Notes under the pieces: generated by a model
Database searches by the model: none
What the model was told of the DNA's origin: nothing
What the model saw: the letters and a program-made list of their open reading frames with translations, nothing else
Program-made: the position numbers and the translations under genes
Assembly (NCBI GenBank): GCA_038999435.1
Contig: JAVZYR010000001.1
Coordinates: forward strand, 12,708 to 76,707
DNA from: Candidatus Aenigmatarchaeota archaeon
GTDB lineage: Archaea; Aenigmatarchaeota; Aenigmatarchaeia; QMZP01
DNA: 64,000 nt
Reading direction: 5' to 3'
Part shown: piece after piece, positions 3,240 through 12,832 of the stretch
Numbering within the stretch: the stretch's first letter is position 1
Layout: each line of letters begins with the position of its first letter

Positions 3240-5969
3240 ATGCATCCTGTGTTTAAACTGCTTGGTAGCGAAGTTGGGGATTTGGCTAGCAGACGATTTG
3301 GCCAACCAACACCTGTTCAGGAAGATGTCATTCCACACATCCTTGATGGCAAGGATTGTCTTGTGGTAGCAGAGACAGGCAGTGGAAAAACAGAGGCATG
3401 TCTTCTACCCATATTTAGCAAGTGGCTTTGTCAGCAACCAAAGGCAACAGCCATACTCTACATAACACCATTAAGGGCATTGAACCGTGATTTGTTAAAA
3501 AGGCTTCTTTGGTGGGGAGAAAACATAGGTATAGATATATCAGTGCGGCATGGTGATACGAGTACATATGAAAGGGCGATGCAGGCAGAAAATCCTGCTG
3601 ATATGCTGATATCAACACCTGAAAGCCTTCAGGCAATCCTACTTGGCAAAAAACTCAGAAAGGCGTTAGAAAACATAAAATGGATAATTATTGATGAGTT
3701 GCACGAGCTGTTTCCAAACAAAAGAGGTGCACAACTCCTCATTGCCCTTGCAAGGCTTTCAGCATTTCTCAAGCAAGGGCCACAAATCATCGCGCTTTCA
3801 GCAACACTTGGAAATCCACAAGAAGCAGCAGAATGGCTCGCTTCGCCATTTGGCAAGCAATGCAATGTGATAAACACTGTGCCAGCAAGGAAACAAAAGA
3901 TATGCATTGAGATGCCAAGGCCTGGCCCACAAGATGTTGAATTTGCAGAGAGAATGGCAACATCACCAGAGCTTGCAGCGCGACTGAGAAGGATAAAGGA
4001 GATATTCAGCGAGAAAAGGTCTCTGCTGATATTCACAAATACGCGTGAATGGGCAGAGATACTTGCATCGAGGCTGAGGGCAGCCGGGCTTGCACTTGAT
4101 ATACATCATTCCTCGCTCTCCAGAGAGGCAAGGATAAAGGCAGAGAATGAGCTGAAGGAAGGAAATATAAAGGCAATTGTGTGCACATCAAGCCTTGAGC
4201 TTGGTATAGACATAGGGCATATAGATTTCATTCTGCAATATGGCTCGCCGAGGCAGGTTGGAAAATTGATTCAGCGTATAGGCCGTTCAGGTCATAGGAT
4301 TGACAAGATAGCAGAAGGAATCATACTCACCACAGATATTGATGATATGCTCGAGGCAAGGGCGATAGTCAGCTTGGCTGAAAAGGGCTGGACAGAGCCC
4401 ATAAGACCATATAACAAGCCATTGGATGTGCTCTGTCATCAAATTGCAGGCATACTTTTAGAAAGATACAAAATAAGGGCAAATGATGTCTACAACCTCT
4501 TTAAAAAGACAAAAACATTTGAGGGCCTTAGTTGGGAAGAATTTATCGAAATGTGCAATTTTATGCAAAAGCTGGGATATCTTTGGATTGATAGCATAGG
4601 AGATGATTTCTTGCTGAAAAGGAGAAAGGCAACATTCGGATATTACTACTCAAATCTTTCGACGATACCTGATGTTAAAAATTATCGTGTGATTGATATC
4701 GTGAGCCAGCAGCCAATAGGAACCCTTGATGCAGAGTTTGTTGCGCTGCATGGCAATCCTGACCAGGTTATCATATTCAAGGGCAGGTCATGGCGCATCA
4801 TTGAGGTTGGAGAAAGGATACTCGTTGAGCCAACCGATGATATCACAGGTGCAATACCTGCATGGGAAGGTGAGCTAATACCTGTTCCAAAAGAGGTTGC
4901 AGAGAATGTTGGTAAATTAAGAAAGGAAATAAAGATGGATGGACAGCCCATTGTACCTGACAATGAAACAGTACTTTTTGAATGGGGAAAGGAAAGGGTG
5001 CAGGGCCTGGGCCCGAGCATAAACTATGCCATCATCCACATATGCAGTGGCTCTCAGGCAAACGAGGCAATAGGTCAGGCCCTTGCATACAAGCTCTCAC
5101 AGCGGTTTGGCTCTGTAGCGCTCAGAACAGACCCATATAGAATATTAATAAGATGGTCAGGTGGAAGTTGGAGAGATGCTTACGAAGCATTCTTGGATAT
5201 AAAGGAAGGGGGAAATCTGAAAGAGATTTTGACAGAGGCATTGCCACATACAGAGTTGTTTGCATGGCGCTTCTATCAAGTCTGTCAAAGATTTGGTATC
5301 ATATCAAGGGATGCACAGCTATCAAAATTCTACCTTAAAAAGCTAATGGAAAGTTACAGAGATAGCCCTGCATGGCGTGAGACAATGAATGAAATAGAGC
5401 AGGGCAAGATTGACATCACAGGCGCAGCAGAGGTATTGACAAAGATAAAAAGGATAGAGGTCATAGAAGGCCTAACAGCCCTTGGAAGGGCCATTGCGCA
5501 CAAAGGCTTTGAACTTGTTGGGCTTGCAAGACCAGAGCATGAGATATTTTCAGCATTCAAGGAAAGGCTGTTAGCAACAAAGATTGGGCTTGTCTGCTGT
5601 TATTGTGCAAAATGGGCAAGGGTAACAGAGGTGAGAGAAATACCAGAACTTATATGTCCTGTTTGCAGTTCAAAGTTGATTGCTGTTGTGCCATGGAGAA
5701 GGGTTGATGAGGCAAAAAAACTAATCGAGGCAGCAAACAAAAAGAAAAGGATGAAAAAAGCTGAAGAGGAAAGGGTAGAAAGGATACTTGCAGGTGCATA
5801 CCTTGTGATTTCTCATGGCAGGGATGCTGTGCTCTGTCTCGCAGGCCATGGCATTGGACCACAGACAGCCTCGCGGATACTTTCAACAATGCCAAAGGAT
5901 GATGAGTTGTTCAGGGCAATACTAAAGGCTGAAAAGGAATTTTTGAGAACAAGAGTCTATTGGAGATGA
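3240..5969 (+). CDS. lhr: Lhr-type ATP-dependent DEAD/DEAH-box helicase (Lhr-core) with a C-terminal Cys4 zinc ribbon.
   Basis: Walker A AETGSGKTEA, DEAD-like DELHEL, SAT motif SATLGN, helicase C motif QRIGRSGH, C-terminal CCYC...CPVC. Confidence 0.85.
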   Translation: MHPVFKLLGSEVGDLASRRFGQPTPVQEDVIPHILDGKDCLVVAETGSGKTEACLLPIFSKWLCQQPKATAILYITPLRALNRDLLKRLLWWGENIGIDISVRHGDTSTYERAMQAENPADMLISTPESLQAILLGKKLRKALENIKWIIIDELHELFPNKRGAQLLIALARLSAFLKQGPQIIALSATLGNPQEAAEWLASPFGKQCNVINTVPARKQKICIEMPRPGPQDVEFAERMATSPELAARLRRIKEIFSEKRSLLIFTNTREWAEILASRLRAAGLALDIHHSSLSREARIKAENELKEGNIKAIVCTSSLELGIDIGHIDFILQYGSPRQVGKLIQRIGRSGHRIDKIAEGIILTTDIDDMLEARAIVSLAEKGWTEPIRPYNKPLDVLCHQIAGILLERYKIRANDVYNLFKKTKTFEGLSWEEFIEMCNFMQKLGYLWIDSIGDDFLLKRRKATFGYYYSNLSTIPDVKNYRVIDIVSQQPIGTLDAEFVALHGNPDQVIIFKGRSWRIIEVGERILVEPTDDITGAIPAWEGELIPVPKEVAENVGKLRKEIKMDGQPIVPDNETVLFEWGKERVQGLGPSINYAIIHICSGSQANEAIGQALAYKLSQRFGSVALRTDPYRILIRWSGGSWRDAYEAFLDIKEGGNLKEILTEALPHTELFAWRFYQVCQRFGIISRDAQLSKFYLKKLMESYRDSPAWRETMNEIEQGKIDITGAAEVLTKIKRIEVIEGLTALGRAIAHKGFELVGLARPEHEIFSAFKERLLATKIGLVCCYCAKWARVTEVREIPELICPVCSSKLIAVVPWRRVDEAKKLIEAANKKKRMKKAEEERVERILAGAYLVISHGRDAVLCLAGHGIGPQTASRILSTMPKDDELFRAILKAEKEFLRTRVYWR

Positions 5970-6631
5970 GGTCTAAATCTGCCTAATAACGTCCCATCGA
6001 GAAGATAAAGTTCAAAACTTTTTATCCTTTTTGCAACAGGGCCAAGCAGCGCCTTCTTGTTTACTGCAAGGCCACCAGCCCAGTGATTAAATGCAGGTAT
6101 GATTACAATCTCTGGCCTCTGTCTTGCAATAACCCACACAGGCTCTGTCCAGGTATAGCCAAGCGTATCTTTGAATTCAAAAACAGGATGCGAATGTGCA
6201 ATCACAATCCTTTTCATTGTCCATGCCTTTTTGTCAGGTTTGGCATGCCCATGGCAAAACCATGTATCTCCGCTTTCTATCCCTTTTGTTGGTAATATCT
6301 CAAGATTTTGTTCTGTAATCCTTTTTATTCCACCATCATGATTGCCTGGGATTAGCCGGATAGGACATTTTATATCAGAGATGAAGCGAGAAATCTCTGC
6401 AAGTTCCCTTTTGCTCATCCCAGGTATTTTATGTTTAAGGTCTCCTAAAATCAGCAAATCCTTGCAGCCAGTCATGTTAAGAATTTCTCTTATCTTTTCA
6501 GCCATTTCTCTTCTCTGTGACGGTATCCTTATCCCTGCTTCCCTCGGTTCAAGCTCTATGCCAAGATGCAGGTCTGCTATAATAAGCGTCTTACCAATCT
6601 TCAGGGCTGGTTTGCCTAAAACAAATCTCAT
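5957..6631 (-). CDS. Calcineurin-like metallophosphoesterase (MPE).
   Basis: Motifs IADLHLG, GDLKH, GNHD, and HSHP in order, as in the Mre11/SbcD-like phosphoesterase fold. Confidence 0.75.
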   Translation of the reverse strand: MRFVLGKPALKIGKTLIIADLHLGIELEPREAGIRIPSQRREMAEKIREILNMTGCKDLLILGDLKHKIPGMSKRELAEISRFISDIKCPIRLIPGNHDGGIKRITEQNLEILPTKGIESGDTWFCHGHAKPDKKAWTMKRIVIAHSHPVFEFKDTLGYTWTEPVWVIARQRPEIVIIPAFNHWAGGLAVNKKALLGPVAKRIKSFELYLLDGTLLGRFRPHLQ

Positions 6632-6662: not shown

Positions 6663-6881
6663 ATGGACTTTGATGAAGAGGAGTTTAAGGAGTTCAAGGC
6701 AATGCTTTTAAGTCAGGCAGGTGTATATTCGGTTGGGCTTGGTGAAAATGAGAAAGGAGAATATACAATAACAATCTATGCTGAAAAAGATGTTCCTGTT
6801 GAAATTCCAATAAGACCGCGTTCGCTTAAAAAATATCCTGTGAAAATCATTAGGGGAGAGCCAATAGAGGCAAAGAAATAA
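6663..6881 (+). CDS. Small (72 aa) protein; appears to be a stand-alone paralog of the N-terminal domain of the downstream protease.
   Basis: GVYSVGLGENEKGEYTITIYAEKDVP...VKIIRGEPIEA resembles NVEGVGIGYKIVKGEKTDEICIVVN...LP...KILTDVYETGEIRA in the 6906 ORF. Confidence 0.45.
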   Translation: MDFDEEEFKEFKAMLLSQAGVYSVGLGENEKGEYTITIYAEKDVPVEIPIRPRSLKKYPVKIIRGEPIEAKK

Positions 6882-6905
6882 AAAATTTTCGTCTAATTTT
6901 AGAAA

Positions 6906-7946
6906 ATGAGATATTCAAAAGATATCGATGAAATTAAAAATGTTTTGGACGCCTGGAGATACACATTATTTTGTAAGCCCAATGTTGAAGGTGTAGGTAT
7001 TGGATATAAAATTGTGAAAGGGGAGAAAACAGACGAAATATGTATTGTTGTAAATGTAAAAAAGAAATTACCAGAGCTCCCTGAAGAAGATATGATACCC
7101 AAAGAGGTTGGAGTTGGCACAAAAATTTTGACTGATGTCTATGAGACAGGAGAGATAAGAGCGCTTTATAAAGAAGCTAAAAGTGCAGAAAATTTAAGAA
7201 CAAAGAAAACAAGGCCTGCATCTGCTGGGGTTTCAATAGGACATTACAAAATTACTGCAGGCACGCTTGGATGTCTTGTGAGAAAAGATGGAAAGATAAA
7301 AATCCTTAGTAATAACCACGTGCTGGCAAATGAGAACAGGGCAAAAATAGGAGATATGATACTCCAACCAGGCCCTTATGACATTAATGATGCAAATTAT
7401 GAGCAGTACAAAATTGCACTGCTCTCTGATTATGTACCAATCTATATTATGGATGAGATACCAACATGCAAAATCAAAAACGTTGCAAAAAATTTCTTGA
7501 GATATATAAAGAAGCAATATTCAAACATTCTTGCGGCTAAAACGAATCGCTTTGATTGCGCTGTTGCTGAAGTATTCAAGCCTGATGATGTCTCAAGCAC
7601 ACTTTATGAGCTTGGTGAACCAGCAACAAAGCCAAGAGATGCAGGGCTTGATATGAAGGTTTGCAAATCAGGACGGACAACAGGCGTAACACAGGGAGAG
7701 ATAACGCAATTACACGTAACAACAAAAGTTAGGTTCTCACGTGGCTATGCAGTTTTTGAAGAACAGATAGCTACAGGACCCATGTGCAAAGGTGGTGATT
7801 CAGGCTCTTTGCTTGTTTCTCAGAGCGGGCTTGAACCTGTTGGACTACTTTTTGCAGGCTCTGATGCCATAACAATATACAATCCAATAAAAGATGTTCT
7901 GAACAAATTAGGGGTTGAAATAGTTTCAAAGCATAATCCATTATAG
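6906..7946 (+). CDS. Trypsin/chymotrypsin-fold serine peptidase-like protein with an N-terminal accessory domain.
   Basis: Ordered candidate catalytic triad: His in SNNHVLAN, Asp in FDCAVAEV, Ser in CKGGDSGSLLV (GDSG-type motif). Confidence 0.55.
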   Translation: MRYSKDIDEIKNVLDAWRYTLFCKPNVEGVGIGYKIVKGEKTDEICIVVNVKKKLPELPEEDMIPKEVGVGTKILTDVYETGEIRALYKEAKSAENLRTKKTRPASAGVSIGHYKITAGTLGCLVRKDGKIKILSNNHVLANENRAKIGDMILQPGPYDINDANYEQYKIALLSDYVPIYIMDEIPTCKIKNVAKNFLRYIKKQYSNILAAKTNRFDCAVAEVFKPDDVSSTLYELGEPATKPRDAGLDMKVCKSGRTTGVTQGEITQLHVTTKVRFSRGYAVFEEQIATGPMCKGGDSGSLLVSQSGLEPVGLLFAGSDAITIYNPIKDVLNKLGVEIVSKHNPL

Positions 7947-8162
7947 ACTGATTTCAATACCTTTATATCTGATTTTAATTTTATAACCAGTTCTTGCCCA
8001 TCTCAATATTTTGAAAAGGCCAAATGTATTTTTAAAGAGATATTTTATGGCAATAAAAAATACAGAGACAACACTTCTTATCTCTATGGTAATGTTATTT
8101 TCATCAAAATTTATATCAATTGCCTTCATTCGATATTTTATACTCAGTTTATAATATTAAAA

Positions 8163-9455
8163 ATGGCAGTTGAGAAGATTGTGATAGGCCGAGATAGAGA
8201 AGATATAAAGAGATATGGCAGTGAGGGTACTGCATACATCGGCAAGCATATTGTTGGAAAGGGCGAGGAGGCACACCTTACAAACCCAATACACATGGAT
8301 TTGATAAGACCACATGTTGTGCTTGTTGCTGGAAAAAGGGGAACTGGAAAAAGCTACAGCGCAGGCGTGATTGCAGAGGAGATTGCAATGCTTCCAAAAG
8401 AAATTAGAGAGAATCTATCTGTGATAATGATTGACACAATGGGCATATACTGGTCAATGAAGATGGGAAATGAGAAGGACAGAGAACTTCTGAAGAATTG
8501 GGGACTCAAGCCACAGGGCCTGCCGATAAAGCTTTATGTGCCAAAAGGGTATGTGAAGGACTATGAGGATGTTGGAGTAAAGGTTGATGGCGCATTCACA
8601 ATTGCTTGCTCTGAGCTCACAGCATTAGATTGGATTATGACATTTGGCTTTTCTATGCTTGACCCACACGGCATAGCAATAGAGCGGGCAATAAAGGCTG
8701 TCACAGACAGATTTGGCACAGAATATTCTATATCAGACATCATAAAGGCCATAGAAGATGATAAAAGGACAGACAAATCAATAAAGGATGCACTTGTGAA
8801 TAGATTTCTTGCTGCAGAGGATTGGGGGCTTTTCGAGATTCATGGTACGACTGTTAGGGAGATGATCGAGCCAGGTGTTATCTCAGTTATTGATGTCAGC
8901 CATTATATGCGTGTCTCGGCTGGATGGTCTGTTCGCTCAATGATAGTTGGATTGTTATCAAGGAAGATTTTCCAAGAGCGGCTGATGGCAAGAAAGGCAG
9001 AAGAATTTGAGATTATGGCAGGGGAAAGGAGAAAAACAATACCAATGGTATGGCTTATGATGGACGAGGCGCATCAGTTTGTTGGCACAGAGCCAACTGC
9101 AGCAACAGAACCATTACTTACGCTTATTAAAGAAGGCAGAGAGCCGGGTATATCTGTGTTGATGATAACGCAAAGGCCTGGAAAACTACATGAGGATGCA
9201 CTGGCACAGGCAGACCTTATAATTGCACACAGGTTGACAGCTGAGGCAGACATCCGTGCGTTAAGGTCAATCATGCAGACATATGTTCTTGAAGATATAC
9301 AGGACCTGATGAATGCATTACCACGCCTCAAGGGCTCAGCGCTCATACTCGATGATAATTCAGAGAGGATATATACAGTTCAGGTCAGACCGCGTTTTTC
9401 TTGGCATGCAGGCGGTTCACCTGCTGCAATAAAGCCAAAAGGGATATTTGGATAG
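8163..9455 (+). CDS. HerA/FtsK-superfamily P-loop ATPase (DUF87-like).
   Basis: Walker A VAGKRGTGKSYS, Walker B/DEAH-like LMMDEAHQF, and the HerA-type ITQRP motif. Confidence 0.7.
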   Translation: MAVEKIVIGRDREDIKRYGSEGTAYIGKHIVGKGEEAHLTNPIHMDLIRPHVVLVAGKRGTGKSYSAGVIAEEIAMLPKEIRENLSVIMIDTMGIYWSMKMGNEKDRELLKNWGLKPQGLPIKLYVPKGYVKDYEDVGVKVDGAFTIACSELTALDWIMTFGFSMLDPHGIAIERAIKAVTDRFGTEYSISDIIKAIEDDKRTDKSIKDALVNRFLAAEDWGLFEIHGTTVREMIEPGVISVIDVSHYMRVSAGWSVRSMIVGLLSRKIFQERLMARKAEEFEIMAGERRKTIPMVWLMMDEAHQFVGTEPTAATEPLLTLIKEGREPGISVLMITQRPGKLHEDALAQADLIIAHRLTAEADIRALRSIMQTYVLEDIQDLMNALPRLKGSALILDDNSERIYTVQVRPRFSWHAGGSPAAIKPKGIFG

Positions 9456-9485: not shown

Positions 9486-11999
9486 ATGAATATTCCTAAA
9501 CTATTATTATTAATTATAACAATATCTGCTATTCTAATCATTTTTATCAGATTCACAGGTCTATTTATTCCTCCTGCTGGCCCTCCTACTGTCTACACAG
9601 TCTGCTCTTCTGGTTGTGATTATGACAGCCTGACAGCATGCCTTTTTACTATAAATAATACACAGAATATTTGCAACATAACGGGCCCTGGCTTTTGGTC
9701 AATAAATGATAGCTATTATTTTATTAGCAATGCCGGTGAAATAGTTGAAATAGCATCAGATGATGTTATTTTTGATTGTAATAATTCAATTTTAAGAACT
9801 ACCCTCATCAATTCTTTTGTAATACGAATGAAAAAAGTTGATAACACAACAATAAGAAATTGCATTTTTAATACAATTGATAACACAATAGATTTACAGG
9901 GAAATAACATAAAAATATACAACAATTCATTTTATGGCGATTGGTATTCTTTGCGGGCTTATGACTGGGTTTACAATATATCAATTTATGATAACAATAT
10001 ATCAACAGGATTTGATCCCTGGTTTAGGGTAGTTAATTGTACCATAGAAAATAATAACATATCTAACGGTTTAAGAGGAGATTTTAACGATAGTATAATA
10101 AGAAATAATAACATTAGTTGCGTGTATATAGTTATCAATGGTAAAAACACAATTTTTGAAAATCATCAGCAAATCTGCGAATCAGGAGACGCTTTACAAT
10201 ATTTTGGTGGTATAAACATAACAATAAGAAATAATAGTTTTATAAACAAAACAACAGGAATAATTATAAATTCAGCTAATGAAACGAATATATATAATAA
10301 TACAATCGTAACATATATTCCAACTGATTATGGAGGGATAAATTCATCAGGCACAAATTTTAATGTTACAATAATCAATAACACCATCACAGGCCCATAT
10401 AAAACTTCAATTGGAATTTTAGGTAGTGGCAATAAAATCATAAATAATACAATAAGCAATACAACACAAGGGATTTATATTAATGGAAGTAATCATAACA
10501 TATCTAGAAATGTAATAAAAAATGCAAGCCAAGAATGTTTATACACAGATTCTTTCACCGAGTCTAGCATAATCTCAAACAACACATTCGAGGATTGCGG
10601 TGCTGTTTCTGGTCCATACGAAGCGTATCTAAGCTCATACTCTCCACTGCAGTATAATGGCAACAACTACACTATTGTTTTTTATGCAAATTCAGATATA
10701 ATCGACACTGTGCAAGTTTCAGAAGATAACACAAATGTTTCTGACATAGTCACAGGTGAAAATAACTTCAGCCTATGGTTAGGTACATGTGAGGATGGCT
10801 CAAGATGGACAGTTTATGTCGAAGAGCCAGAGAGTATGTCGTGCTCAGATGTATTTAATTTAGGTTGTAATGGCATATGTGACTTTGAACAGGATGGCTA
10901 CTGGATTGCAAATGGCTATGGTCAAAACTACACATTAAATCAATCACCGCAGGTCTCTGTCATTCCCGGCTACACAGACCCTGCATGGCTGAGATACAGC
11001 TCATGGTATGTCCAGGATTACTATCCAATTGTTCTTTATGGCTCCTCTGGAAACAACATAACAAAGAATTGGATAAAGGATGTGAACAAAAAGAACAACT
11101 ATTCTATCTACTCAGATACAAATGCACAGGACAGGATATGGCTAAACATGCTTCTCTCAGGTGGCATAAACATCACAGGCACTGAGCCAATCTTATGCGT
11201 GAATGGTGAAGGAAACTTTTATGGCGAGGGCAGTTTAGGCGTGCCTGAGAACGATTGTGGTCCTGCAAGCATCACCGCACCAACAGCAGGTGCATACACA
11301 GGTAGCATAACAATTCAATGGACTGCCCAATCCTCACCAGAGCCTGTAACATATGATGTCTATGCAAAGAATTTAGCAACAGGCGAGATGACAAAACTTA
11401 CAGAAACAACAAGCCTTTCATATTTATGGAACCTATCAGGATACTTAGGAAATTATAAAGCAATCATTATTCCATGGATCTCTGGCTCAAGGATTAATGC
11501 AACATGGGCAGAGTCAGGCATACTTCAGCTTGGTCAGGGTACAGGTGGAGGCAATGTCACTGTTACAATCCTTACATCCATCACAATATCCCTACCTGTA
11601 GATACAGTCAACTTTGGCACAATGCAACTTGGCCAATCTGACAACACAACAGATAACAGCCCACCACCATTCATCCTTCAAAATGATGGTTCTGTGCCCG
11701 TCAACATTACAATAAATGCAACTCAGCTTTGGTACAGCAGCCTTGGTTCAGGCACAAGCAGTTATTATCAATTCAAAACAGAATGTAATGAGTCATCATG
11801 TGTGCCAGACCCAGATAATGACCTCGTTACATCCTGGACAAACATACCAATAAATGAACAAGCAATCCTTGCCTGTTCAAATCTTCGCTTCATAGACAAC
11901 CAAGATACGGTTAAGATTCACATAAAGGTTACAGTTCCGGTTGATGAGCCAGCAGGTTCAAAGAACAGCACAGTCACATTCACAGCAAGCCAAGCATAA
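9486..11999 (+). CDS. Giant Asn-rich cell-surface protein with an N-terminal signal/anchor, right-handed parallel beta-helix repeats, and a C-terminal about 145 aa module shared with downstream small proteins.
   Basis: N-terminal hydrophobic segment; many IxNNxI/NNTI PbH1-like repeats; very dense N-x-S/T sequons. C-terminal region from about 11550 is homologous to the 12251 ORF. Confidence 0.7.
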   Translation: MNIPKLLLLIITISAILIIFIRFTGLFIPPAGPPTVYTVCSSGCDYDSLTACLFTINNTQNICNITGPGFWSINDSYYFISNAGEIVEIASDDVIFDCNNSILRTTLINSFVIRMKKVDNTTIRNCIFNTIDNTIDLQGNNIKIYNNSFYGDWYSLRAYDWVYNISIYDNNISTGFDPWFRVVNCTIENNNISNGLRGDFNDSIIRNNNISCVYIVINGKNTIFENHQQICESGDALQYFGGINITIRNNSFINKTTGIIINSANETNIYNNTIVTYIPTDYGGINSSGTNFNVTIINNTITGPYKTSIGILGSGNKIINNTISNTTQGIYINGSNHNISRNVIKNASQECLYTDSFTESSIISNNTFEDCGAVSGPYEAYLSSYSPLQYNGNNYTIVFYANSDIIDTVQVSEDNTNVSDIVTGENNFSLWLGTCEDGSRWTVYVEEPESMSCSDVFNLGCNGICDFEQDGYWIANGYGQNYTLNQSPQVSVIPGYTDPAWLRYSSWYVQDYYPIVLYGSSGNNITKNWIKDVNKKNNYSIYSDTNAQDRIWLNMLLSGGINITGTEPILCVNGEGNFYGEGSLGVPENDCGPASITAPTAGAYTGSITIQWTAQSSPEPVTYDVYAKNLATGEMTKLTETTSLSYLWNLSGYLGNYKAIIIPWISGSRINATWAESGILQLGQGTGGGNVTVTILTSITISLPVDTVNFGTMQLGQSDNTTDNSPPPFILQNDGSVPVNITINATQLWYSSLGSGTSSYYQFKTECNESSCVPDPDNDLVTSWTNIPINEQAILACSNLRFIDNQDTVKIHIKVTVPVDEPAGSKNSTVTFTASQA

Positions 12000-12044: not shown

Positions 12045-12239
12045 ATGGCATCCAACAAATTGCTGGCTGCATTGATTTTAGTGCTACTTGTAGCATCGCT
12101 TGTTGGTATGTATATTTTGATTGCACCGCTAATTCCAGTCGCGCCAGCCATAGCAACAGAGACAGGAGTTGTTAGCCTTTATGTTGCACCACAGCCATAC
12201 TCTACAGGAGGTATGGTTTCTGTGGTCGTAATAGGATAA
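12045..12239 (+). CDS. Small secreted or pilin-like protein (64 aa); a truncated paralog of the N-terminal part of the next gene.
   Basis: Strong SD (TAGGAGGTAAAATG); N-terminus MASNKLLAALILVLLVASLV parallels MVSNNTLAALILVAIVISLV of the 12251 ORF. Confidence 0.5.
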   Translation: MASNKLLAALILVLLVASLVGMYILIAPLIPVAPAIATETGVVSLYVAPQPYSTGGMVSVVVIG

Positions 12240-12250
12240 GGAGGTAAAAG

Positions 12251-12832
12251 ATGGTAAGCAATAATACACTTGCAGCCCTTATCTTGGTAGCAATAGTGAT
12301 ATCCCTGGTAAGCATAGCAACAACCCTAAACATTGCCTCAAGGATACCCATAACCCTAACAGGAGGCATATCAGGCACAACACAAGTATCAGTCGCAACA
12401 GCAATCACAATCACCCTGCCAGTAAGTACAGTAAACTTTGGCTCAATGTCCCTTAATGCAGAGGATGATACAACGGACAACAGCCCAGGCCCGTTCATTG
12501 TTCAAAATGACGGTTCTGTGTGTGTCAATGTGACAGTTAATGCAACACAACTTTGGTCAGGAACAGGCGCAACAGGTACATCGACATACTACAGATTTAA
12601 ATCAGAATGCAATGAGGCAAATTGCGTTAACAACGAAACAGAAGATCTTGTGAGCTCATGGACAAACATGCCAATTGCATCTGCTGCAACAAAGCTTGTC
12701 AACAGACTAAGATACACTGATTCACAGGATACTGTGAAGGCGCACATTTATCTAAAGGTCCCTGCAGATGAGCCAGCAGGTCCAAAGAGCAGTACTGTGA
12801 CATTTACATCAGAAGACGCAGGCGGCTGCTAA
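12251..12832 (+). CDS. Secreted protein (193 aa) made of a signal/anchor plus the beta-rich module shared with the C-terminus of the 9486 protein.
   Basis: SD AAGGAGGTAAAAGATG; roughly 60% identity by eye to 9486 residues about 690-837 (ITITLPVSTVNFG...DNSPGPFIVQNDGSV...NATQLW...YYRFKSECNE...VTFT). Confidence 0.65.
   Translation: MVSNNTLAALILVAIVISLVSIATTLNIASRIPITLTGGISGTTQVSVATAITITLPVSTVNFGSMSLNAEDDTTDNSPGPFIVQNDGSVCVNVTVNATQLWSGTGATGTSTYYRFKSECNEANCVNNETEDLVSSWTNMPIASAATKLVNRLRYTDSQDTVKAHIYLKVPADEPAGPKSSTVTFTSEDAGGC

What the first reader, a model, noticed from the sequence alone, without database searches (positions are those of the whole stretch)
6663..9455. Three-gene module: small domain protein, trypsin-fold protease with the same N-domain, and a HerA/FtsK-type ATPase
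The 72-aa product of 6663 appears to be a free-standing copy of the N-terminal domain of the adjacent 346-aa protein. That protein's C-terminal half shows an ordered His/Asp/Ser (GDSGS) chymotrypsin-fold triad. Co-oriented 216 nt downstream is a 430-aa P-loop NTPase with Walker A GTGKS, DEAH-like Walker B, and the HerA-type TQRP motif. HerA-family ATPases paired with an effector (SIR2, DUF4297, nuclease) are known defence modules, but I do not recall a HerA plus serine-protease pairing being described. A duplicated adaptor domain plus protease plus ring ATPase is suggestive of a regulated-proteolysis or defence system. There is no NurA nearby, so this is not the canonical HerA-NurA repair pair.
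Basis: partly seen in the sequence, partly recalled or inferred. Interest (0 to 1): 0.7.

Follow-up and report, generated by a model that had tools for sequence, protein, structure and literature searches.

The report
Split NAL1-like protease beside unrelated ATPase
The proposed three-gene protease-plus-HerA system is really two separate things: an ordinary but uncharacterised NAL1-type serine protease with a free-standing extra copy of its own N-terminal domain (a pairing that recurs widely in microbes), and next to it an unrelated, very strongly conserved HerA-type ATPase of this archaeal lineage.

Summary
The window comes from a Candidatus Aenigmatarchaeota genome.

The 346-aa protein is a prokaryotic NAL1-like S1 protease. 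Its catalytic residues H138, D217 and S299 are invariant in the family. Foldseek's 34 best PDB matches are all rice NAL1, and the protein matches PHROG 20754 over its full length.

The 72-aa protein is a divergent free-standing copy of the protease's N-domain, which is homologous to the NAL1 ATP-binding domain. Direct similarity is weak, but an iterative search links them. In 48 of the 79 closest metagenomic loci where a protease ORF was called, a small N-domain gene sits next to the protease. Half of the top homologues carry a second copy fused to the protease.

The three-gene module is not supported:
- The 216-nt gap holds a conserved 62-aa gene on the opposite strand.
- Five other Aenigmatarchaeota loci with the ATPase have no protease.
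- None of 160 scanned protease loci has a HerA-like gene.
- The ATPase is 90% identical between two genomes whose neighbouring genes are 35-69% identical, so it looks like a core gene, probably of DNA metabolism.

Interest is low to moderate. The split second-domain arrangement is the only new point.

The parts
6663..6881 (+). 72-aa free-standing, divergent copy of the NAL1_N / ATP-binding-domain-like domain. It has no signal peptide and lies 24 nt upstream of the protease gene, in the same frame but with three in-frame stop codons between them.
   Evidence: ORF and spacer. (hhalign P = 2.7e-4, rank 1 of 606, 0 of 300 shuffles). (jackhmmer chain to the protease N-domains, and alignment). (AlphaFold pLDDT 83.5; H5-17, E21-28, E34-41, E60-65). 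Its orthologue in L001 (63 aa, 35% identity) is in the same position.
6906..7946 (+). 346-aa NAL1-like S1 (chymotrypsin-fold) serine protease. N-domain at about residues 5-86, a low-confidence linker at 90-119, and the protease domain at about 120-346. Catalytic residues H138, D217 and S299. No signal peptide.
   Evidence: weak NAL1_N, Trypsin_2 and Nal1_C matches. (streptogrisin, alpha-lytic protease and NAL1). (invariant residues). (pLDDT 81.7). (Foldseek ranks 1-34 are all rice NAL1, E about 1e-15). (the N-domain profile hits only NAL1 residues 107-165, E = 5e-5). (PHROG 20754 'protease', 8e-68, full length). (large family).
7941..8129 (-). 62-aa conserved small ORF of unknown function. It is convergent with the protease gene (6-nt overlap) and divergent from the ATPase gene (33 nt apart). 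It belongs with the ATPase, not with the protease.
   Evidence: It is homologous to the 88-aa minus-strand gene upstream of the ATPase in L001/L002/L009 (36.5% over 63 aa). That gene is in turn conserved next to the ATPase in L012 (42%). No Pfam or PHROG match.
8163..9455 (+). 430-aa HerA/FtsK-superfamily P-loop ATPase without a HAS-barrel. Walker A at residues 57-64, Walker B at D301-E302, TQRP at 336-339. It is a slowly evolving gene conserved across the lineage and is not part of the protease unit.
   Evidence: DUF87 32.2 bits, HerA_C 34.5 bits, both above cut-off; no HAS-barrel match. (mad8 full length, 4.5e-21; only partial HerA model matches). (far below every NCBIfam equivalog cut-off). 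(PDB HerA matches to the C-terminal half only). (more than 120 clusters at 64-90% identity; one carries an intein). (90% identity to the L001 orthologue, against 35-69% for the neighbouring genes).

Best explanation
The region holds two independent units.

(1) Genes 6663-6881 and 6906-7946 form a two-gene unit for a cytoplasmic NAL1-like serine protease.
- The protease has an N-terminal domain homologous to the ATP-binding, trimer-forming domain of rice NAL1, followed by a chymotrypsin-fold catalytic domain.
- The 72-aa product is a second, degenerate copy of that N-domain, made as a separate polypeptide.
- By analogy with NAL1, I infer that the protease assembles into a self-compartmentalising oligomer through contacts between the N-domain and the protease domain.
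- I also infer that the small protein joins this assembly as an extra subunit that tunes assembly or substrate access. This is the role played by the fused second copy in about half of the family.
- It has probably lost nucleotide binding, because the K-x-x-K-G-x-x-T-D loop and the T-D-V motif are missing.

(2) Gene 8163-9455, together with the divergent small gene 7941-8129, is a separate unit conserved across the lineage. It is a HerA/FtsK-type ring ATPase and most probably acts on DNA (repair, recombination or translocation).

What is shown: the homologies, the domain duplication, the recurrence of the small-gene-plus-protease pair, and the lack of any protease-ATPase linkage. What is inferred: the oligomeric state, co-assembly, the role of the small protein and the ATPase substrate.
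For: Protease identity.

NAL1 domain roles: the ATP-binding domain (aa 89-172) binds structural ATP and forms the trimer interface with the protease domain (PMC12012508). In the alignment, NAL1 R120, K123 and K139 align with window K35, K38 and the family-invariant K54.

Second copy of the N-domain:
- 59 of 118 top homologues carry two fused copies, either in tandem at the N terminus or at the C terminus.
- 48 of the 79 closest metagenomic loci have an adjacent same-strand small ORF with the domain (31 downstream, often with an ATGA overlap; 17 upstream). Two more are fused.
- The small copy is the only widely conserved neighbour of the protease (31 loci by BLAST clustering).
- The window small protein joins this family by jackhmmer.
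- It has an orthologue in the same position in L001.

Independence of the ATPase: the opposite-strand gene, and the 90% versus 57% versus 35% identity contrast.

DNA-related context of ATPase orthologues:
- Lhr helicase and an MPE/SbcD-related phosphoesterase lie 1.5 kb upstream in the window and in L001.
- An Mre11-like gene is adjacent in L012.
- A Holliday-junction-endonuclease family gene (PF10107) is adjacent in L014.
Against: - Direct sequence similarity between the small protein and the N-domain is weak. The link rests on intermediate sequences and on a database enriched for protease loci.
- No experiment or multimer prediction shows that the small protein binds the protease.
- No prokaryotic NAL1-like protease has a known substrate.
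- In the one syntenic relative, a HAS-barrel HerA (479 aa) follows the protease after 40 nt. A lineage-specific protease-HerA link is therefore not fully excluded.
- The DNA-repair context of the ATPase is seen in only three of six lineages.
Confidence: 0.72

Rival explanations
1. The small protein, the protease and the HerA-type ATPase form one regulated-proteolysis or anti-virus defence module. The ring ATPase would sense or unfold a target, and the protease would be the effector.
For: - The three genes are co-oriented within 2.8 kb.
- The ATPase matches PADLOC HerA models and mad8.
- A distant homologue (32% identity) lies beside a BREX-type ATPase gene on a Haloplanus plasmid.
- In relative L001, a HAS-barrel HerA starts 40 nt after the protease.
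Against: - No protease lies near the ATPase in five other Aenigmatarchaeota loci.
- No HerA-like gene was found in 160 scanned protease loci or in nine looked-up loci.
- A conserved opposite-strand gene lies between protease and ATPase.
- The ATPase is conserved like a housekeeping gene: 90% identity against 35-69% for its neighbours, an intein-containing orthologue, and more than 120 clusters at 64% identity or above.
- PADLOC finds nothing for the protease or the small protein.
- The surrounding genes are ordinary chromosomal genes (Lhr, MPE, topoisomerase VI B).
Confidence: 0.06
2. The small protein, and the N-domain itself, acts like the pro region of alpha-lytic protease. It would be a foldase and/or tight inhibitor supplied in trans. 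Its C-terminal tail would occupy the active site until it is removed.
For: - After NAL1, the catalytic domain is closest to the S1E enzymes (streptogrisin, alpha-lytic protease), which depend on pro regions.
- Foldseek with the small-protein model lists alpha-lytic protease pro-region chains at ranks 6, 8-10 and 26 (E = 0.06-0.3, TM about 0.5).
- Free-standing and C-terminally fused copies all end at the same conserved position...G-x-I-[RK]-A-[LQ].
- From my own knowledge, the alpha-lytic pro region has two alpha/beta domains and works in trans. This was not checked here.
Against: - The fold matches are not significant, and many unrelated alpha/beta domains score higher.
- The N-domain profile finds NAL1 but no pro region in the PDB, even at E = 10.
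- In the NAL1 structures the homologous domain stays attached and builds the oligomer interface. It does not block the active site (PMC12012508).
- The window small protein carries two extra residues after the conserved terminal Ala.
Confidence: 0.15
3. The 72-aa ORF is a decaying remnant of a formerly fused second domain and no longer has a function.
For: - It evolves fast, at 35% identity to its orthologue against 57% for the protease.
- It has lost the conserved nucleotide-binding positions.
- It has no database homologues beyond the related locus.
Against: - The ORF is intact in two genomes whose typical proteins are only 65-69% identical, and it keeps the domain's hydrophobic core pattern.
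- AlphaFold folds it confidently from a single sequence (pLDDT 83.5).
- The same short, loop-less subclass (71-75 aa) recurs next to proteases in at least six metagenomic contigs spanning 41-67% GC.
Confidence: 0.07

Closest known systems
Rice NARROW LEAF 1 (NAL1) protease (PDB 7Y77, 8HAS/8HAT/8HAU, 8PME-8PN2; Pfam NAL1_N PF25608 and Nal1_C PF25819)
   Same: - Same two-domain core: a small alpha/beta domain, which binds ATP in NAL1, followed by a chymotrypsin-fold His/Asp/Ser protease.
- The full-length Foldseek matches at ranks 1-34 are all NAL1.
- The N-domain profile hits NAL1 residues 107-165 only.
- The basic residues that contact ATP phosphates in NAL1 align with conserved Lys residues here.
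   Different: - Only 16-19% sequence identity.
- It lacks the NAL1 N-terminal extension (aa 1-88) that stacks trimers into the hexamer, and lacks the long C-terminal tail.
- It is archaeal.
- It has an additional free-standing copy of the N-domain, which NAL1 does not have.
- Single-sequence Pfam scores are below the gathering cut-offs.
- ATP binding and oligomeric state are untested.
PHROG 20754 'protease' and the putative serine protease of Aeropyrum coil-shaped virus (Alphaspiravirus yamagawaense)
   Same: - Full-length match to the PHROG profile (8e-68).
- 32% identity over 85% of the query to the ACV gene.
- At least 101 IMG/VR contigs encode relatives.
   Different: - The viral copies are almost always single-domain genes without an adjacent small copy (74 of 79).
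- They have no conserved neighbour.
- The window copy sits in ordinary chromosomal synteny, not in a provirus.
S1E bacterial proteases (alpha-lytic protease, streptogrisin A/B) with their pro regions
   Same: - Best PDB sequence matches to the C-terminal half.
- TM-score (normalised to target length) about 0.7 to the catalytic domain.
- An N-terminal accessory alpha/beta domain, or two of them.
   Different: - Those enzymes are secreted, disulphide-bonded, and cleaved from their pro region.
- This protein has no signal peptide.
- Its accessory domain is related to the NAL1 ATP-binding domain, with no detectable sequence relation to pro regions.
HerA family ATPases (archaeal HerA-NurA; the defence pairs SIR2-HerA and DUF4297-HerA; MADS mad8)
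   Same: - The ATPase has the DUF87 and HerA_C cores, Walker A and B, and the TQRP motif.
- It matches the PADLOC mad8 profile over its full length.
   Different: - No HAS-barrel.
- It is 430 aa, against 480-700 aa for those proteins.
- It scores far below every NCBIfam HerA equivalog cut-off.
- No NurA, SIR2, DUF4297 or other effector partner is conserved next to it.
- It is conserved like a core gene across Aenigmatarchaeota.

Membership tests
NAL1-like S1 serine proteases | Chymotrypsin (PA-clan) fold with an ordered His-Asp-Ser triad | tested here: met
   H138, D217 and S299 are invariant in 28 of 28 homologues. Foldseek matches NAL1 at E about 1e-15 and S1E proteases with target-normalised TM-score about 0.7. 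phmmer matches streptogrisin B at 2e-4.
NAL1-like S1 serine proteases | NAL1_N / ATP-binding-domain-like alpha/beta domain directly upstream of the protease domain | tested here: met
   A profile of 28 N-domains hits only NAL1 residues 107-165 in the PDB (E = 5e-5). The AlphaFold N-domain has pLDDT above 90. Most homologues carry a precomputed PF25608 hit.
NAL1-like S1 serine proteases | Score above the Pfam gathering thresholds for NAL1_N and Nal1_C | tested here: not met
   Window protein alone: NAL1_N 17.5 bits (cut-off 27) and Nal1_C 15.0 bits (cut-off 26.1). Membership therefore rests on profile and fold evidence, not on the curated threshold.
NAL1-like S1 serine proteases | Structural ATP bound by the N-domain, and a trimer/hexamer cage | not testable with these tools
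   There is only an alignment of NAL1 R120, K123 and K139 with window K35, K38 and K54 (alignment, plus PMC12012508). No ligand or multimer prediction was available.
NAL1_N / ABD-like domain family (for the 72-aa protein) | Significant sequence relationship to the domain | tested here: inconclusive
   Direct tests are weak: no Pfam hit, hmmsearch 6.4 bits, hhalign P = 2.7e-4 to 1.9e-3. Indirect tests are strong: jackhmmer reaches a two-copy protease at 8e-11 in round 2 and 209 domain-bearing ORFs in round 3. The secondary-structure order is the same. The genomic position is the same as in 48 related loci.
Canonical archaeal HerA (HerA-NurA end-resection helicase) | N-terminal HAS-barrel domain | tested here: not met
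   No PF09378 match for the window ATPase, and only about 50 residues precede Walker A. The separate 479-aa HerA of locus L001 does have one.
Canonical archaeal HerA (HerA-NurA end-resection helicase) | RecA-like core with Walker A/B and the HerA-type C-terminal region | tested here: met
   DUF87 32.2 bits (cut-off 23.2) and HerA_C 34.5 bits (cut-off 22). PDB HerA chains match down to 1e-9 over residues 208-401.
Canonical archaeal HerA (HerA-NurA end-resection helicase) | Adjacent NurA nuclease, or a score above the NCBIfam HerA equivalog cut-off | tested here: not met
   The flanking genes are a 62-aa ORF and a NosD-like protein. The best NCBIfam HerA scores are 32-50 bits against cut-offs of 800-970. 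NurA was not searched for across the whole window.
HerA-plus-effector anti-phage systems (SIR2-HerA, DUF4297-HerA, MADS) | Conserved adjacency of the HerA-type ATPase to its effector or partner genes | tested here: not met
   The protease is absent next to five orthologous ATPases. HerA is absent from 160 scanned protease loci. PADLOC finds nothing for the protease or the small protein. Other mad genes were not looked for.
Alpha-lytic-protease-type pro region (for the 72-aa protein) | Fold or sequence match to the pro region | tested here: inconclusive

The most novel reading that the evidence does not exclude
The arrangement in the sister genome (L001: small domain protein, then protease, then a HAS-barrel HerA only 40 nt downstream) would be the ancestral state of an ATPase-coupled proteolysis or defence module specific to this Aenigmatarchaeota lineage. 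The window would then hold a reduced form in which the neighbouring conserved HerA-type ATPase, or no ATPase, serves the protease. A milder version of this reading is that prokaryotic NAL1-like proteases are two-component cages whose second, free-standing ABD-like subunit gates substrate entry.
Probability: 0.07. Interest if true: 0.65.

Novelty: new variant of a known kind. Interest (0 to 1): 0.3.

Why it matters
NAL1 is an agronomically important rice protease whose cage architecture was solved only recently. Its prokaryotic and viral relatives form a large family: 883 clusters at 50% identity score E <= 1e-30, and about 9,800 score E <= 1e-3. None has a known substrate or role.

The second copy of the ATP-binding-like domain recurs in three forms: fused at the N terminus, fused at the C terminus, or encoded by a separate adjacent gene. 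The window has the separate-gene form. This gives a concrete and testable handle on how these proteases assemble and are regulated.

It also removes a false lead. There is no HerA-protease defence system here, so the locus should not be added to defence-system catalogues.

Tried and rejected
- Direct BLASTP of the small protein against the protease gave only chance-level local matches.
- hmmsearch of the N-domain HMM against the small protein gave 6.4 bits and was outranked by one random segment. Taken alone it is not evidence.
- The database search with the 72-aa protein found only itself.
- The single genome-contig scan, run with the ATPase as a single sequence, returned only three loci. ATPase neighbourhoods had to come from individual look-ups instead.
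- Small genes upstream of protease homologues in three virus-like contigs and one bacterial contig (DUF6485) were checked. They are unrelated to the window small protein.
- I looked for a conserved partner of the protease in 80 viral loci and found none.
- The idea that the region is a provirus or defence island was considered and rejected. The flanking genes are syntenic chromosomal genes in a relative, and Rfam and tRNA scans of the window found nothing.
- The sigma-70 promoter and terminator scan is not informative for an archaeon.
- Literature searches found no description of prokaryotic NAL1 homologues or of a HerA-protease pair.
Full report
**Source and anatomy**

The protease and ATPase are 100% identical to proteins of a Candidatus Aenigmatarchaeota MAG, on an 82.9-kb contig. 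The region reads as follows:
- Lhr helicase, 3240-5969 (+)
- MPE/SbcD-related phosphoesterase, 5957-6631 (-)
- 72-aa ORF, 6663-6881 (+)
- 346-aa ORF, 6906-7946 (+)
- 62-aa ORF, 7941-8129 (-)
- 430-aa ATPase, 8163-9455 (+)
- NosD/beta-helix protein, 9486-11999 (+)

The 216-nt 'gap' is not empty, however. It is filled by the minus-strand 62-aa ORF.

**The protease**

Single-sequence Pfam matches are weak: NAL1_N, Trypsin_2 and Nal1_C, all below cut-off. The rest of the evidence is consistent:
- phmmer finds streptogrisin B, alpha-lytic protease and rice NAL1.
- The family alignment shows H138, D217 and S299 invariant.
- The AlphaFold model built on 28 sequences has pLDDT 81.7 and pTM 0.83.
- Foldseek against the PDB returns rice NAL1 chains at ranks 1-34 (E about 1e-15, full length), then S1E proteases.
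- A profile of the N-domain alone hits only NAL1 residues 107-165 (E = 5e-5).

NAL1 residues 107-165 lie in the ATP-binding domain (aa 89-172). That domain binds a structural ATP and forms the trimer interface with the protease domain (PMC12012508). In the alignment, the NAL1 phosphate-binding residues R120, K123 and K139 align with window K35, K38 and the family-invariant K54.

The family is large. There are 7,993 clusters in the capped word-index search. The exhaustive search finds 883, 5,406 and 9,815 representatives at 50% identity with E <= 1e-30, 1e-10 and 1e-3. The family is already recognised in viruses:
- PHROG 20754 'protease' matches at 8e-68 over the full length.
- The 'putative serine protease' of Aeropyrum coil-shaped virus is a homologue.
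- At least 101 IMG/VR contigs encode relatives.

**The small protein**

Direct comparison with the protease is not significant. The N-domain HMM scores it at only 6.4 bits. Several other lines of evidence agree that it is a copy of the N-domain.

1. Profile comparison. hhalign of the small protein plus its L001 orthologue against 177 N-domain instances aligns residues 8-47 to domain positions 7-51, with P = 2.7e-4. Alone, it is the best of 606 small window segments, and 0 of 300 shuffles reach its score.
2. Structure. AlphaFold folds it from a single sequence (pLDDT 83.5) into helix-strand-strand-strand. This is the same order as residues 7-80 of the protease.
3. Fused second copies. 59 of the 118 best protease homologues contain a second copy of the domain, in tandem at the N terminus (P0005, P0008, P0036) or at the C terminus (P0003, P0019, P0026).
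4. Split second copies. Among the 79 closest metagenomic loci where a protease ORF was called (80 returned), 48 have a same-strand small ORF of 71-124 aa carrying the domain directly next to a protease of 331-340 aa. Of these, 31 are downstream, often with an ATGA overlap, and 17 are upstream. Two more are fused, 16 are single-copy with adequate flanks, and 13 are cut by contig ends.
5. Iterative search. jackhmmer started from the window protein finds three of these small ORFs (L146, L120, L098) and the L001 orthologue in round 1. In round 2 it finds a two-copy protease at 8e-11, and in round 3 it finds 209 domain-bearing ORFs. The alignment is shown.

The window protein belongs to a short subclass of 71-75 aa. 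This subclass lacks the K-x-x-K-G-x-x-T-D loop and the T-D-V motif, so it has probably lost nucleotide binding.

The small copy is the only widely conserved neighbour of the protease. Viral copies are nearly all single-domain (74 of 79). The two window ORFs are in the same frame but are separated by three stop codons, so this is a genuine split and not a recent nonsense mutation.

**The ATPase and the proposed three-gene module**

The ATPase passes the Pfam cut-offs for DUF87 and HerA_C but has no HAS-barrel. It is far below every NCBIfam HerA cut-off. It matches solved HerA structures only over its C-terminal half. Its only full-length profile match is PADLOC mad8.

It is unusually conserved. 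More than 120 database clusters are 64-90% identical, and one carries an intein. Between the window and the syntenic relative L001, orthologue identities are as follows:

| Gene | Identity |
|---|---|
| ATPase | 90% |
| Lhr | 69% |
| MPE | 65% |
| Protease | 57% |
| NosD-like | 39% |
| 62/88-aa ORF | 37% |
| Small protein | 35% |

Neighbourhood tests:
- The ATPase orthologues in L010-L014 (49-75% identity) have no protease in the sequence available around them, up to 8-10 kb each side (L011 is a 5.5-kb contig).
- The protease loci have no tblastn match to this ATPase or to the L001 HerA479. This holds for 80 viral loci, 80 metagenomic loci (45 of them 6 kb or longer) and nine look-ups.
- In L001, the protease and the ATPase are separated by a 479-aa HAS-barrel HerA and two minus-strand small genes.
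- Those small genes travel with the ATPase: the 88-aa and 62-aa genes recur in L012, and the 62-aa gene recurs in L014. The window keeps one of them, at 7941-8129.

For the ATPase, a DNA-repair or recombination role is the best guess. It rests on superfamily membership and on its neighbours: Lhr and MPE in the window and L001, an Mre11-like gene in L012, and a PF10107 Holliday-junction-endonuclease gene in L014. This is inference from three of six lineages.

**Mechanism proposed**

By homology to NAL1, the protease should form an oligomer through contacts between the N-domain and the protease domain, probably a trimer or a higher-order cage. The small protein would add a second ABD-like module in trans, as the fused copies do in cis, and so modulate assembly or access to the active sites.

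The main rival is that it acts like an alpha-lytic-protease pro region, as a foldase or inhibitor. This rests on non-significant fold matches and on the strictly conserved C-terminal end of the second copies. It runs against what the NAL1 structures show. A decaying remnant is unlikely, given the conservation and the confident fold.

**Verdict**

- The three-gene interpretation is wrong.
- The protease is a member of a known but functionally unexplored family.
- The ATPase is a separate gene conserved across the lineage.
- The residual novelty is the recurrent split or fused second ABD-like domain. I found no description of it in the literature.

Interest is about 0.3.

Noticed in passing
window 7941-8129 (-): A 62-aa ORF fills the supposed intergenic gap. 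It is homologous to an 88-aa gene that, together with a 62-aa gene, sits divergently upstream of the ATPase in L001 and L012 (only the 62-aa gene matches in L014). It has no family match and its function is unknown. It is probably the true partner of the ATPase.
   Followed up: partly
L001 7096-8535 (+), also L002 and L009; L010 3615-5702 (-): The sister genome has an extra 479-aa HAS-barrel HerA starting 40 nt after the protease. It is absent from the window, with no remnant. A 695-aa relative (35% identity) lies 2.2 kb from the ATPase in L010, with no protease present. The two HerA-type paralogues may therefore be linked to each other.
   Followed up: partly
L012 9603-10988 (-); L014 9301-9639 (-): ATPase orthologues are convergent with an Mre11-like phosphoesterase in L012 and with a PF10107 (Holliday-junction endonuclease family) gene in L014. 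This hints at a DNA-repair role.
   Followed up: partly
P0181 (ATPase homologue, 627 aa): One orthologue of the ATPase carries an intein (PF14890). This is typical of slowly evolving, essential ATPases.
   Followed up: no
L130 8993-9277, L174 2808-3107, L106 2537-2821, L139 7259-7597: Several downstream free-standing N-domain ORFs have hydrophobic, signal-peptide-like N-terminal extensions if the upstream ATG (the one with the ATGA overlap) is used. The 72-aa class starts at the internal Met. It is unclear which start is real.
   Followed up: no
L018-L097 (IMG/VR); H2/H3 Aeropyrum coil-shaped virus 10511-11446: NAL1-like proteases are common in viral contigs, but there they are single-domain genes with no conserved neighbour. 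Cellular contigs usually carry a second N-domain copy.
   Followed up: partly
window 9486-11999 (+), 12045-12239 (+), 12251-12832 (+): The C-terminal 150 aa or so of the 837-aa NosD/beta-helix protein is repeated in the 193-aa protein that follows. That protein, and a 64-aa neighbour, begin with archaeal pilin-like (class III) signal sequences.
   Followed up: no
window 3240-5969 (+) and 5957-6631 (-): An Lhr-type helicase and an MPE/SbcD-related phosphoesterase overlap tail to tail. The pair is conserved in L001, where two further genes are inserted between them.
   Followed up: no
L178 (Haloplanus sp. HW8-1 plasmid NZ_CP098519.1) 4841-7149: A 32%-identical homologue of the ATPase overlaps a 380-aa hypothetical gene by 4 nt. 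It lies beside a gene annotated 'BREX system ATP-binding domain-containing protein'. Distant members of this HAS-less HerA clade may therefore sit in defence-like islands.
   Followed up: no
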